Part shown: piece after piece, positions 8,401 through 11,400 of the stretch
Layout: each line of letters opens with the position of its first letter
Position numbering within the stretch: the stretch's first letter is position 1
Assembly: GCF_009914755.1 (NCBI RefSeq)
Contig: NC_060927.1
DNA length: 64,000 bases
Strand: one strand, 5' to 3'
DNA from: the human T2T-CHM13v2.0 reference genome, Homo sapiens
The notes under the pieces: generated by a model
Seen by the model: the letters and a program-made list of their open reading frames with translations, nothing else
What the model was told of the DNA's origin: nothing
Database searches by the model: none
Translations under genes and position numbers: made by a program

Positions 8401-11400
8401 TGTGTTTAATTCCTTTAGCAATTAGTTGTGACATGTTTTTTCTCTGTGTATCTCATTCATTCAGCAATCATAACTTTATTTTCTTTTTGTTTTTAGTAAT
8501 CTCTTATTCTCACCCAGACCTTTCATCTGGAATGGTTGTTTGCAAGAGGGACAAAAGCATTTTTACAGAAAAATATTTTAATACAACCTAACCAGAATAA
8601 CACATCATATTCTGGAATTGGTCAGGACAAAATCCTGAATTTTCAAAAATTTTCAAAATGGTAGTTCGGGTGTGGTGGCTCGTGTCTGTAATTCCAACAT
8701 TTTTGGAGGCTGAGGCAGGAGGATCGCTTGAATTCAGGAGTTTGAGACCAGCCTGGGCAACATAGTAAGACTTCATCACCACTATGAAGTGCACTATGGT
8801 GCACACCTGTAGTCCCAGCTACTCTGGAGGCTGAAGTGGGAGGATCCCTTGAGCTCAGGAGGTTGTGGCTGCAGTGAGCCGTGTTCACACCACGGCACTC
8901 CAGCCTGGGTGACAGAGCAAGGCCCTGTATTAAAAAAAAAAAAATCAAAGTAATCTTAAATAACCTCTCACTATTTTTTGTCCTGATCATTTATTCATTG
9001 AGCAGCCTAGAAAAGGTCAGTCCCTTTCTGGGGAAAGCTGTATTTAATAATCAAACTGCCTTACCAGAAGGAAGGAGAAGGAAATTGTATTAGTTTATTT
9101 TCTGTTGCTTATAAAAGAATACCTAAAACTCAGGTAATTTATAAAGAAAAGAAATTCATTTATTACAGTTATGGAGGCTGAGACTCCAAGGTCGAGGAGC
9201 TGCATCTGGTGAGGGCCTTCTTCCTAGCGAGGACTCCCTGAGGAGTCCCAAGGTGGTGCTGGGCATCACATGGTAAGCTCAGGTCTTCCTCTTCTTATAA
9301 AGTCACCAAGATCCTCTTAAGTGCGTTTTTTCTTGTCATTTCAAGAGTCCCACTTGACCCACTCAAAAATATACATACAGACTGGAAAATCATAAGCTTC
9401 TAAGGCTGACAATTTCACAAGAGCTCATTAGCAACTAATGCTAATTTTAGTTTAAAAGCAACTTTGCTTTTTAAAACTCCAAAAGTATATCGCCATCTGG
9501 AGATTGCTTGTCTTTTATGTTGTCTCCTTTTTTCCAGAGGCTTCATAGGCAAAAGTTATAGCAAAAATTATCCATTGCAGAGACTTTTGTTTTTTAATAC
9601 TCAAATAATTTAAACTCCAACCCACACATTGGTGGCAAGAAACAAGGACATTGTATTCCACTGACACTTTTTCTTTGCAGGTTTCCCTGGTCATCTTGCA
9701 TTTATGACACTGCAAGCATTAAACTGGTATATCAATTTTGACCATCTATCCAAGTGCAATAGCTACAAAATAAAAATACAAACGCTTTTTTTTTTTTTTT
9801 TTTTTTTTAGAGTTGAGGTCTCACTTTGTTGCCCAGGCTGGCGTGTTGTGGCTATTCACAGCTGCAATCATAGCTCACTGCAGCCTCAAACTCCTGGGCT
9901 CAAGTGATTCTCCCACCTCAGTCTCCCGAGTAACCGGGATTACAGGTATGTGACTCCAAAGGCATTTTTTTAAAGACAGCCCCAGTGTGGCTTCCTGTAG
10001 TTCCAGGATTCCTCCAGCCTCCCAGATCTGCCTTAAGCAGTGCTCAGGTCACAGAGCAGTGCCCAGGAGAGGGTGAGGGAGGAGGCTCCAGTACTGGCCA
10101 TCTGTTATGTGCTGTATGTTGGTTTCTTAGGGCATTCAAATGACCACAAATGAGGCTGCTTAAAACAACAGCAATTTATTATTCTCTCGTTCTGGAAGAT
10201 AGACATCCAAAATCAAAATGTCCGCAGGGTCCTGCTCTTGCAGAAGCCTCCAGTGGAGAATCTTCCCTTGTCTTTCTTGGTTTCTGGTGGCTCCAGGTGT
10301 TCTGTGGCTTGCAGCTGTGTAACTCCAGTCTCTGCCTCCATCTTCACATGACCCTCCCCTTGCCTTTCCATGTCTCTTATAAGGACACTTATTCTTGGAT
10401 TTAGGTCCTACCTGGATAATCCAGGATAATATAATCACAAGATCCTTAATCACACCTGAAAATCCCCTATTTCTATAAGGTCACATTCATAGGCTCCAGG
10501 TGGAGATATCTTCTGTGGGACCACCATTCAACCCACTATATGCCCATCTGCCTAACATTAATGATGGCCTGCATTTTGTCGAGTGCCTACTGTGTGCCAG
10601 GCATGTGCCAGGCACTCAATGTGCACACTAGCCACCAAGGGAGGGACTATGTTTACCATTCCAGGGAGATAAGGTCTTAAGAAGCTTCCACAGAGATGAC
10701 TGCATTTAGGATTTGGATTTCTTAACTGCTCTTTCCTGCTTCCTGGTACCAAAACCTATACCTTTACCCCTTGGGAACCCAGGTCACCCACCTGCCCAGT
10801 CCATGGGGGAGCAGGAATAAGTCAGAACATGGGAGGGACTGTTAAAGCCCTTTTCCAGCTGTGATTGCTTTGCGATTGGCTCTGGGTCCCACAGCAGGAG
10901 CTCTGCTGTCCAGGGAAATGAAGAAGCCTTTCAGGATTGCAGCTCCTGACAGCATGCTATGGTTTGAATATGTCTCCCCCTAAAATTCAGGGGTTGCCAA
11001 TGTGGTGATACTAAGAGGTGGGGCCTTTAAGAGTTGATTAGGTGATAAGGGCTTCTTCCCTGTGAATGAGATGAGGTGCCCCTCTAAAGGGACCTGAAGG
11101 AGGGAGTTGGTCCTCTCTCGCCCTCTGCCTTCTGCTATGTTACAATGCAGCAAGAGGCCCTCACCAGATGCTAGTGCCTTGATCTTGGACTTCCCAGCCT
11201 CCAGAACTGTGAGAAATAAATTTCTATTCTTTCTAAATGACCCAGTCTCAGGTATTCCATAACAGTGGCACAAATGGGCTAAGATGCTCCAGCTAGCCAT
11301 CGGCCCACCCCAAGGTTTCAGCCCAAGAAGGGGAAGCACCTGGGAAGGTAGGTCTGTCTGCCAGGTGGGCCTCCCTGCTGGAGGCAGCAGGTTCCCAGGC

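What the first reader, a model, noticed from the sequence alone, without database searches (positions are those of the whole stretch)
9786..9951. Fossil-Alu (7SL-derived) cassette exon that would give leaderless TGM4 a signal-peptide-like N-terminus
Seen: an antisense FAM-like monomer in intron 1 provides a 23-T tract plus AG (9809-9810) and a strong CAG|GTATGT donor (9945/9946). These bracket exactly 135 nt in phase 1-1, with no stop in the TGM4 frame. Inclusion gives [56 protein letters not shown]... (729 aa). Established: transglutaminases lack classical signal peptides, yet TGM4 is secreted into seminal fluid, and antisense Alus are common exon donors. Inference: the new N-terminus has an n-region containing K and R, a hydrophobic core ([13 protein letters not shown]) and a small-residue A-H-C|S site. 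A 7SL(SRP RNA)-derived element may therefore have created an ER-targeting signal, making the secretion route depend on splicing. I recall a longer TGM4 splice variant being reported but cannot confirm it is this exon; the signal-peptide role is my own hypothesis.
Basis: partly seen in the sequence, partly recalled or inferred. Interest (0 to 1): 0.85.

Follow-up and report, generated by a model that had tools for sequence, protein, structure and literature searches.

The report
Known TGM4 exon 1B, SINE-derived
This is the already published and annotated alternative "exon 1B" of the prostate transglutaminase gene, built from an old 7SL-derived SINE monomer; it does add a hydrophobic, signal-peptide-like stretch, but the only reported experiment says this longer protein is not secreted.

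Summary
T23, AG, a 135-nt exon (9811-9945) and a CAG|GTATGT donor are all present. The exon is open only in the TGM4 phase and takes the protein from 684 to 729 aa.

The exon is not new. RefSeq lists it, and Thomas et al. (PMC3535377) cite Cho et al. 2010 for a differentially spliced "exon 1B" in TGM4 intron 1 that encodes 45 aa.

The source is an antisense free monomer of the Alu right-arm lineage. It carries the exact 7SL residual 11-mer at 9850-9860, so it is FRAM/FAM class. That 11-mer encodes W-L-F-T, the centre of the hydrophobic core.

The core is more hydrophobic than in any control: 0 of 66 frames from ordinary Alu arms and 0 of 24 sibling monomers reach its value. The signal-peptide resemblance is therefore real.

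The functional claim is not supported:
- A review of Cho 2010 reports TG4-L in 56% of BPH and 15% of cancer samples, and not detected in HeLa supernatant although TG4 was secreted.
- Leaderless TGM4 export already has vesicle and apocrine explanations.
- An unbroken U23 is the signature of hnRNP C repression.

Verdict: a known, ordinary SINE exonization, of low interest.

The parts
9786..9964 (-). Free 7SL-derived SINE monomer of the Alu right-arm lineage (FRAM/FAM class), antisense to TGM4 in intron 1, with its poly(A) tail at the low-coordinate end
   Evidence: Rfam Metazoa_SRP matches 9808-9954 on the minus strand at 59.6 bits, E 2.2e-14, below the gathering score of 70. Similarity to about 50 Alu pieces in the window ends at 9946-9959, so there is no second arm. 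It is 21.6% diverged (36 of 167 positions) from the majority of 24 sibling monomers. The 5' limit near 9964 is my reading of the sequence.
9786..9808 (+). Unbroken T23. It is the antisense poly(A) tail, it serves as the polypyrimidine tract of the cassette, and it is a predicted high-affinity hnRNP C site.
   Evidence: hnRNP C prefers long continuous U-tracts and represses Alu exons, while established Alu exons tend to have shorter tracts (PMC3629564, passages read). Binding at this site is inferred, not shown.
9777..9783 (+). TACAAAC, a branch-point-like heptamer. Its A at 9782 lies 28 nt upstream of the acceptor G.
   Evidence: Use as a branch point is inferred.
9809..9810 (+). Acceptor AG, in the context T23-AG|AG. 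A second AG follows at 9811-9812, and using it would shift the frame.
   Evidence: The T(n)AGAG form is seen in 5 of 24 sibling monomers.
9811..9945 (+). TGM4 cassette exon 1B: 135 nt, phase 1-1, 45 codons, giving the TG4-L isoform
   Evidence: RefSeq exon of the other TGM4 transcript (hub table).. PMC3535377, Fig. 1c legend.
9850..9860 (-). Exact copy of TGTGAATAGCC, the 11-bp residual 7SL sequence. On the + strand it supplies the codons for W20-L21-F22-T23 of the long isoform.
   Evidence: One search gives one exact match in the window. PMC7960883 names this 11-mer as the 7SL remnant found in FRAM and not in FLAM. It is absent from 21 of 22 Alu right arms in the window; the other one has an unrelated 8-nt insertion. 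The Rfam alignment keeps 12 more 7SL model positions than an ordinary Alu arm does (151 positions deleted against 163).
9846..9881 (+). Codons for the most hydrophobic 12-residue window, [12 protein letters not shown] (residues 16-27 of the long isoform)
   Evidence: KD 12-mer mean 2.25, KD 19-mer mean 1.76, and 23 uncharged residues (10-32).
9946..9951 (+). Donor GTATGT. With the last three exon bases it matches 8 of 9 positions of CAG|GTAAGT.
   Evidence: The homologous CAGGTR is present in 6 of 24 siblings.
9965..9971 (+). T7 tract 20 nt downstream of the donor. It is a possible binding site for U-tract proteins.
   Evidence: A role is inferred from the discussion of downstream U-tracts in PMC3629564.
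8705..8949 (+). Sense-oriented Alu whose right arm is complementary to the cassette. The pairs are 8802-8879 with 9873-9950 (78 nt, 85%) and 8890-8949 with 9792-9851 (60 nt, 70%).
   Evidence: Any effect on splicing or editing is inferred.
2404..2422 (+). Coding part of TGM4 exon 1 (19 nt), the upstream splice partner
   Evidence: and the hub table.
13055..13228 (+). TGM4 exon 2, the downstream splice partner. Its acceptor tract is only 53% pyrimidine.
   Evidence: and the hub table.

Best explanation
Window 9811-9945 is TGM4 exon 1B, a published and annotated alternative cassette.

Origin. An old free SINE monomer of the Alu right-arm lineage (FRAM/FAM class) inserted antisense into intron 1. 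Its tail became a U23 polypyrimidine tract followed by AG. A CAG|GT donor lies at the position where many sibling copies have the same dinucleotide.

Inclusion. The exon is used in a minority of transcripts. It was detected in about half of BPH samples and few cancer samples. I infer that hnRNP C on the unbroken U-tract, and possibly pairing with the inverted Alu about 1 kb upstream, hold it down.

Product. Inclusion keeps the frame and inserts 45 residues immediately before the start of the conserved N-terminal sequence. These include a 23-residue uncharged stretch. Its core, W-L-F-T, is encoded by the antisense of the 7SL 11-mer.

Most likely consequence. TG4-L is a by-product isoform that stays with the cell. 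The hydrophobic N-terminal extension interferes with the leaderless (vesicle or apocrine) export used by the canonical enzyme. It does not open a productive ER-Golgi route.

Shown: the anatomy, the origin, the frame and the hydrophobicity. Reported second-hand: variable detection and non-secretion. Inferred: the hnRNP C repression and the reason for cell retention.
For: - Anatomy and frame.
- RefSeq exon: hub table.
- Publication: PMC3535377, Fig. [quoted passage not shown] 135 nt equals 45 codons.
- Expression and secretion: PMC6652054 (passages read) describes variants L, M1, M2 and S. L, M1 and M2 have intact frames. M and S were in all BPH and PCa tissues, and L in 56% of BPH and 15% of PCa. 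TG4 was secreted from HeLa cells, but TG4-L was not detected in the supernatant. The canonical mRNA must be present in all prostate samples, and exon 1B is the only added sequence reported. L is therefore the form that includes exon 1B (my inference).
- Monomer origin: Rfam 7SL match. No second arm. Exact 11-mer, named as the FRAM mark in PMC7960883. The 11-mer is absent from 21 of 22 local Alu arms. Ordinary-Alu control.
- Family size: the 14-mer around the 11-mer occurs 1387 times in the genome, against 3 for the reversed control.
- Sibling monomers: of the 30 loci sampled, 24 are monomers. They read the same frame as ...[16 protein letters not shown]..., and it is open in 16 of 24.
- Repression logic: long continuous U-tracts are the strongest hnRNP C sites and repress Alu exons (PMC3629564). 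The inverted Alu is shown.
- Leaderless export of the canonical protein: TGM4 in seminal vesicle proteomes, apocrine secretion of rodent prostate transglutaminase, and ER/Golgi-independent export of TG2 (PMC3083433).
Against: - Cho et al. 2010 itself could not be read (searches found it not held). The identity of TG4-L with the exon-1B form, and the HeLa result, rest on two secondary sources and my inference.
- HeLa is not a prostate secretory cell.
- The hydrophobic core exceeds every control. The three differences I read as particular to the TGM4 copy in that stretch (Y12F, Q19L, G24A) all raise hydropathy. This leaves room for a selected function.
- Non-detection in the medium is also what an ER-targeted but retained or misfolded protein would give.
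- No RNA-seq, iCLIP or primate data could be consulted, so inclusion level, hnRNP C binding and conservation are untested here.
Confidence: 0.72

Rival explanations
1. The cassette creates a cleavable N-terminal signal peptide, cut after A-H-C at residue 30. This sends TG4-L through the ER and Golgi, so the secretion route of TGM4 depends on splicing.
For: - The hydrophobic core [12 protein letters not shown] has a KD mean of 2.25.
- A small-residue -3/-1 site follows residue 30.
- K6 and R9 lie upstream.
- The segment sits within the first 32 residues.
- The core is more hydrophobic than 0 of 66 Alu-arm frames and 0 of 24 sibling monomers.
- New exons that encode predicted signal peptides have a precedent in mouse Aptx (bioRxiv 10.1101/009282, passages read).
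Against: - TG4-L was reported as not detected in HeLa supernatant although TG4 was secreted (second-hand).
- The isoform is missing from many prostate samples that still express TGM4.
- The n-region has 2 basic and 2 acidic residues. The c-region is only H-C with no proline or glycine.
- The catalytic body carries 7 N-x-S/T sequons and 15 cysteines. By inference this makes correct folding in the ER doubtful for an enzyme of a cytosolic family.
- Vesicle and apocrine routes already explain export.
- The cassette peptide was found in 0 papers (main texts only).
Confidence: 0.05
2. The hydrophobic stretch is recognised at the ER but does not give secretion. It acts as an uncleaved signal-anchor, or as a signal peptide on a protein that then fails quality control. 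TG4-L would then be membrane-bound or ER-retained. Splicing would lower released enzyme, or place some enzyme on membranes or vesicles.
For: - There are 23 consecutive uncharged residues (10-32), flanked by R9 and K33.
- The KD 19-residue mean is 1.76, above the classical 1.6 mark.
- Non-detection in the medium fits retention.
- The review notes different cellular localisation of the variants.
- TGM4 is present on or in seminal vesicles.
Against: - The summed Hessa-type insertion energy of the best 19-mer is +2.8 kcal/mol, using a scale I recalled and did not check. That argues against a stable membrane span.
- Charges are balanced on both sides, so no orientation is favoured.
- There are no direct data on membrane association.
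- The same observations fit a cytosolic protein that simply is not exported.
Confidence: 0.2
3. The exon is transcript-level noise or an annotation artefact, and no protein is ever made.
For: - The U23 tract predicts repression.
- No cassette peptide was found in print.
- 0 of 8 primate TGM4 cluster representatives carry the cassette.
- TGM4 was absent from those supplement texts of two Alu-exon proteome papers that are held.
Against: - The variant was independently cloned from prostate tissue by RT-PCR and sequenced, according to two papers that cite Cho 2010.
- It is in RefSeq (hub table).
- The frame is intact, so nonsense-mediated decay is not expected.
- The protein database clusters at 90% identity and would hide such isoforms.
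Confidence: 0.1

Closest known systems
TGM4 exon 1B / TG4-L (Cho et al. 2010, Exp Mol Med 42:310, as cited in PMC3535377 and PMC6652054)
   Same: Same gene, same intron, same size (45 aa = 135 nt). It is alternatively included and the frame is intact. This is the same object.
   Different: Nothing in the passages I could read says that the exon is SINE-derived or signal-peptide-like. The primary paper was not available, so I cannot say whether it notes either point.
Exonization of antisense Alu right arms, and hnRNP C-repressed Alu exons (Zarnack et al. 2013, PMC3629564)
   Same: The element is antisense in an intron. The poly(A) tail is read as a U-tract polypyrimidine tract, with AG just after the tract. 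The donor is at the CAG|G site near the 5' end of the arm. The exon is about 120-135 nt and is a minor cassette.
   Different: The source is a free monomer carrying the 7SL 11-mer, not a dimeric Alu. The acceptor is T(n)AG|AG rather than the T(n)GAGAC of the 22 local Alu arms. The 11 extra bases shift the upstream reading frame, so the peptide differs from the usual Alu peptide.
FRAM / FAM fossil monomers (Quentin 1992, as summarised in PMC7960883)
   Same: It is monomeric, 7SL-like and A-tailed. It carries the exact 11-bp residual 7SL sequence.
   Different: Subfamily assignment is open. The block AGCTCACTGCAG matches Alu right arms, whereas most sampled siblings have the GCGCACTACAG-type block. 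This suggests FRAM rather than FAM. No Dfam or Repbase consensus was available.
New exons that encode predicted signal peptides (mouse-specific Aptx exon; Merkin et al., bioRxiv 10.1101/009282)
   Same: A young alternative 5' coding exon adds a hydrophobic N-terminal segment to a protein that otherwise lacks one.
   Different: In Aptx a predictor (SignalP) called a signal peptide. Here no predictor could be run, and the reported behaviour of the isoform is non-secretion.
Band 4.2L variant with an extended exon 1 (mentioned in the PMC3535377 Fig. 1c legend)
   Same: Another member of the transglutaminase family with an alternatively spliced N-terminal insertion ahead of the beta-sandwich domain.
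   Different: It arises by extension of exon 1, not from a SINE cassette. I did not examine it further.

Membership tests
Antisense Alu-type SINE exonization | SINE lies antisense to the host gene inside an intron | tested here: met
   The 7SL/Alu homology is on the minus strand and TGM4 is on the plus strand, in intron 1 (hub table).
Antisense Alu-type SINE exonization | The tail-derived U-tract serves as the polypyrimidine tract, with an AG just downstream and a GT donor inside the arm | tested here: met
   T23-AG at 9786-9810 and CAG|GTATGT at 9943-9951.
Antisense Alu-type SINE exonization | The exon is actually spliced into mRNA as an alternative cassette | not testable with these tools
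   No RNA-seq was available. Support comes from the RefSeq table (hub) and from papers citing Cho 2010.
FRAM/FAM free monomers | Single arm with no linked second monomer | tested here: met
   Similarity to about 50 Alu pieces in the window stops at 9946-9959.
FRAM/FAM free monomers | Carries the 11-bp residual 7SL sequence that dimeric Alu arms and FLAM lack | tested here: met
   Exact match at 9850-9860 on the minus strand. Absent from 21 of 22 local right arms. Named as the diagnostic in PMC7960883. Rfam controls.
   No Dfam or Repbase consensus is held. The AGCTCACTGCAG block hints at FRAM.
Metazoan 7SL RNA (Rfam RF00017) | Score at or above the family gathering threshold, with the S domain present | tested here: not met
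   59.6 bits against a threshold of 70, with 151 S-domain positions missing. It is a derivative of 7SL, not a 7SL gene.
Classical cleavable signal peptide | Hydrophobic h-region of about 7-15 residues near the N-terminus | tested here: met
   Residues 16-27 have a KD mean of 2.25, and the best 8-mer has 2.54.
Classical cleavable signal peptide | Net positive n-region | tested here: inconclusive
   Residues 1-11 hold 2 K/R and 2 D/E. Only the free amino terminus would make the region positive.
Classical cleavable signal peptide | Polar c-region with small residues at -3 and -1 | tested here: inconclusive
   A-H-C|S obeys the -3/-1 rule. However, 9 sites between residues 16 and 42 obey it, and the c-region has 2 residues with no helix breaker.
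Classical cleavable signal peptide | Directs translocation and secretion | not testable with these tools
   No predictor or bench assay was available. The second-hand report is non-secretion of TG4-L from HeLa cells.
hnRNP C-repressed Alu exons | Long continuous U-tract upstream of the 3' splice site | tested here: met
   U23 without interruption. Tracts of nine or more U are enriched among the strongest sites (PMC3629564).
hnRNP C-repressed Alu exons | hnRNP C crosslinking at the tract, and de-repression on knockdown | not testable with these tools
   TGM4 is prostate-restricted. No iCLIP or knockdown data were available.

The most novel reading that the evidence does not exclude
Exon 1B encodes a working ER-targeting sequence. 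Its core is written by the antisense of the 7SL (SRP RNA) remnant, sharpened by hydrophobic replacements specific to this copy (Y12F, Q19L, G24A). Splicing would then switch TGM4 between the leaderless vesicle/apocrine route and the ER, giving a membrane-bound or retained enzyme, or in prostate cells a classically secreted one. The loss of TG4-L in cancer would be a change in enzyme topology rather than splicing noise.
Probability: 0.15. Interest if true: 0.55.

Novelty: already known. Interest (0 to 1): 0.2.

Why it matters
Taken as it stands, this is one more SINE-derived minor cassette exon in a tissue-specific gene. It has been published since 2010 and is annotated.

Two small points may be new:
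- The exon comes from a fossil right-arm monomer rather than a dimeric Alu.
- The retained 7SL 11-mer both shifts the frame and encodes the centre of the hydrophobic stretch. In the sample examined, antisense monomers of this class read a moderately hydrophobic open frame in 16 of 24 cases.

If the stretch were shown to engage the ER, it would be a tidy case of a transposon changing the topology of a leaderless enzyme. It might also explain why the variants localise differently. It would not explain how the bulk of TGM4 reaches semen.

Tried and rejected
- **Primary paper.** Cho et al. 2010 was not held under its PMC id, DOI or PubMed id. Quentin 1992 was not held either. I relied on passages in PMC6652054 and PMC3535377 instead.
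- **Protein search with the 44-aa cassette, longer proteins.** It returned 624 significant hits, of which the best 120 are listed. All 120 listed are generic Alu-containing gene models from one monkey genome and none is TGM4. A single exact 44-aa match would probably fall just below the listed cut-off, so this says nothing about primate TGM4-L.
- **Protein search with exon 2.** 0 of 8 primate TGM4 representatives carry the cassette. The database is clustered at 90% identity and the 66-member chimpanzee cluster could not be opened, so this is uninformative about conservation.
- **Pfam on the cassette.** 0 families.
- **Literature.**
  - TGM4 together with Alu gave 3 papers, none listed with either term in its title or abstract; I did not open them.
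  - 'TG4-L' gave 1 relevant paper.
  - The cassette tryptic peptide gave 0 papers, main texts only.
  - TGM4 with 'signal peptide' gave 26 papers, of which 15 are listed. Nine of those concern a helminth protein of the same name. I opened only one of the rest (bioRxiv 10.1101/120873), and its passages do not discuss exon 1B.
- **Supplements.** TGM4 was not in the supplement texts held for two Alu-exon proteome papers. Those held texts are small (about 23,000 and 15,000 characters), so fuller tables may not be included. bioRxiv supplements, such as the peptide lists of 10.1101/120873, are closed. Table S3 of PMC3629564 was not examined.
- **First frame control.** It used a wrong anchor, because the 11-mer shifts the frame. 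It was replaced.
- **Recollection not confirmed.** I recalled that a signal-peptide-tagged TG2 becomes glycosylated and inactive. PMC3083433 has no mention of glycosylation, so I dropped the claim.
- **Argument for selection.** All 5 replacements in residues 12-30 raise hydropathy. I set this aside as evidence. The sibling consensus mixes two subtypes, the siblings were chosen by an exact 14-mer inside that stretch, and no orthologues were available.
- **Not done.** I ran no signal-peptide or membrane predictor and no structure prediction. None of the former is offered, and a fold of a 44-aa piece would not discriminate between the readings.
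Full report
**1. The observation**

The sequence is as described.
- Positions 9786-9808 are 23 consecutive T, followed by AG at 9809-9810.
- The 135 nt from 9811 to 9945 end in CAG and are followed by GTATGT.
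- TGM4 exon 1 contributes 19 coding bases (2404-2422), so the intron is phase 1 and a 135-nt insert keeps the phase.
- In that phase the cassette has no stop. The other two phases have 3 stops and 1 stop, and one search lists the open frame 9774-9953.
- Joining the annotated exons by script gives 684 aa without the cassette and 729 aa with it.
- The hub's RefSeq table lists 9811-9945 as an exon of the second TGM4 transcript.

**2. How special is it?**
- An open frame is ordinary. In the homologous segment of 22 other Alu right arms in this window, 24 of 66 frames are open.
- The pair of splice sites is not rare. Among 24 sibling monomers from the genome, 5 have a T5+AGAG acceptor, 6 have a CAGGTR donor at the same place, and 3 have both.
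- By simple counts the sites are good. The donor matches 8 of 9 consensus positions, second of 14 TGM4 donors. The acceptor tract is all pyrimidine, against 53-82% for the 13 constitutive acceptors. A TACAAAC branch-like heptamer sits 28 nt upstream.

**3. What the element is**
- Rfam's metazoan 7SL model matches the minus strand at 9808-9954 with 59.6 bits and E 2.2e-14. That is below the gathering score of 70, and the S domain is missing.
- BLAST of 9760-10160 against the window finds about 50 Alu pieces, and every alignment ends between 9946 and 9959. There is no second arm.
- Aligned with 22 local right arms, this copy alone carries 11 extra bases. 21 of the 22 lack any insertion there, and one has an unrelated 8-nt duplication.
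- Those bases are the exact reverse complement of TGTGAATAGCC, at 9850-9860. [quoted passage not shown]
- As a control, an ordinary Alu right arm at 25864-26011 aligns to the 7SL model with 163 positions deleted, against 151 for this element.
- The 14-mer around the motif occurs 1387 times in the window's genome, against 3 for the reversed control.
- Of the first 30 such loci, 6 look like 7SL pseudogenes and 24 are monomers.
- The TGM4 copy differs from the majority of those 24 at 36 of 167 positions (21.6%). The siblings average 24.9%. That points to an old insertion. My rough reading, from recalled neutral rates, is before the simian radiation.
- Its AGCTCACTGCAG block is the form seen in Alu right arms. 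Most sampled siblings instead have a GCGCACTACAG-type block.
- I therefore call the element FRAM/FAM class, leaning FRAM.

**4. The peptide**
- The cassette encodes 44 full codons plus the split codons.
- The 11-mer supplies W20-L21-F22-T23. Because 11 is not a multiple of three, it also joins two frames that are separate in dimeric Alus. The peptide is therefore not the usual Alu peptide.
- In the long isoform, residues 10-32 are uncharged. The best 12-residue Kyte-Doolittle mean is 2.25 (residues 16-27) and the best 19-residue mean is 1.76. The canonical N-terminus reaches only 0.84 and 0.14.
- None of the 66 frames of ordinary Alu arms reaches 2.25; their maximum is 1.88.
- None of the 24 sibling monomers reaches it either; their maximum is 2.15. 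The siblings read ...[16 protein letters not shown]... and the frame is open in 16 of 24.
- Against the sibling majority, all five replacements in residues 12-30 raise hydropathy. Two of them look like subfamily differences, the siblings were chosen by a 14-mer inside this stretch, and no orthologues were available. I draw no conclusion about selection.
- Other signal-peptide features are mixed. The first 11 residues hold 2 basic and 2 acidic residues. A-H-C|S fits the -3/-1 rule, but so do 9 sites between residues 16 and 42. The c-region is two residues long with no helix breaker.
- A summed insertion energy of +2.8 kcal/mol for the best 19-mer argues against a stable membrane span. The scale was recalled from memory.
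- The catalytic body has 7 N-x-S/T sequons and 15 cysteines.
- No signal-peptide predictor was available.

**5. What is already known**
- Thomas et al. write, in the legend of their Fig. [quoted passage not shown] That is this cassette.
- A review of prostate transglutaminases summarises Cho et al. as follows (PMC6652054, passages read).
  - There are four mRNA variants: L, M1, M2 and S.
  - L, M1 and M2 have intact frames.
  - M and S were in all BPH and cancer tissues.
  - L was in 56% of BPH and 15% of cancers.
  - TG4 expressed in HeLa cells was secreted, but TG4-L was not detected in the supernatant.
- The canonical mRNA must be present in every prostate sample, and exon 1B is the only added sequence reported. 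I infer that L is the form that includes exon 1B.
- The primary paper is not held, so this identification and the HeLa result are second-hand.
- In the passages I read, neither paper mentions a SINE origin or a signal-peptide-like stretch.
- I found no statement of either idea in searches for TGM4 with Alu, Alu exon with signal peptide or TGM4 with signal peptide. Most listed papers were not opened. The library lacks most subscription journals.

**6. Export of the canonical enzyme**
- TGM4 is identified in both populations of seminal extracellular vesicles (PMC7663558).
- Apocrine release was proposed for prostate secretory proteins that lack a leader, with rodent transglutaminase as the cited case (PMC6357244).
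- TG2 leaves cells by an ER/Golgi-independent route (PMC3083433).

**7. Why inclusion is probably low**
- Zarnack et al. show that hnRNP C prefers long continuous U-tracts and displaces U2AF65 from them.
- It represses more than a thousand Alu exons.
- Tracts of nine or more U are enriched among its strongest sites.
- Established Alu exons tend toward shorter or interrupted tracts (PMC3629564, passages read).
- An unbroken U23 on such an old element fits the repressed class. Binding at this site is inferred.
- A sense-oriented Alu about 1 kb upstream is 85% complementary over 78 nt to 9873-9950. That stretch includes the donor, so pairing could mask it (inferred).

**8. Explanation**
- Most likely (0.72), this is a known, minor SINE-derived cassette.
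- Its product, TG4-L, carries a hydrophobic N-terminal extension and stays with the cell. It is a by-product that loses leaderless export rather than gaining a classical route.
- Non-detection in the medium would equally fit an ER-targeted protein that is anchored or retained. I give that rival 0.2.
- Productive signal-peptide-driven secretion gets 0.05.
- Pure transcript noise with no protein gets 0.1.

**9. Conservation**

Conservation could not be tested. None of 8 primate TGM4 representatives carries the cassette, but the database collapses isoforms at 90% identity. The cassette-only search was swamped by Alu-bearing gene models.

**10. Verdict**
- The feature is already known.
- The link between the 7SL 11-mer and the hydrophobic core is a neat detail and may be new.
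- The ER-engagement question is cheaply testable.
- Overall interest is low.

Noticed in passing
window 8705-8949 paired with 9792-9950: A sense-oriented Alu about 1 kb upstream is complementary to the cassette (78 nt at 85%, 60 nt at 70%, 42 nt at 81%). It could form double-stranded RNA over the exon and its donor, which would make it a candidate for masking or A-to-I editing.
   Followed up: partly
window 9965-9971: A T7 tract lies 20 nt downstream of the cassette donor, just beyond the 5' end of the monomer. It is a second U-tract of the kind discussed for hnRNP C and TIA proteins.
   Followed up: no
window 13030-13054: The acceptor of constitutive TGM4 exon 2 has the weakest pyrimidine tract of the gene: 53% pyrimidine, with a longest run of 3. 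It is much weaker than the acceptor of the competing cassette.
   Followed up: no
genome G000, loci L001-L030: The 14-mer around the 7SL 11-mer occurs 1387 times in the genome. In 24 sampled monomers the antisense frame through it reads a shared, moderately hydrophobic peptide (...[16 protein letters not shown]...), open in 16 of 24. Exonized monomers of this class may often add hydrophobic segments.
   Followed up: partly
protein P0123 (Hylobates moloch TGM4 model, 737 aa): This gibbon gene model has an unrelated N-terminus of about 140 residues and lacks the block around the active-site cysteine that is present in the other primate sequences. It looks like a damaged gene or a poor model. I recall reports of TGM4 loss in gibbons but did not check them.
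   Followed up: no
window 9813-9915: There are sub-threshold Rfam matches to mir-3135 (41.8 bits, gathering score 80) and mir-1285 (19.9 bits, gathering score 56) inside the cassette. I take these families to be Alu-derived (recalled, not checked); mir-3135 also matches the ordinary Alu control at 25930-25989. I take the matches as repeat similarity, not as miRNA genes.
   Followed up: no
window 9811-9812: A second AG follows immediately after the acceptor AG (T23-AG-AG). Using it would remove 2 nt and shift the frame, giving a truncated product.
   Followed up: no
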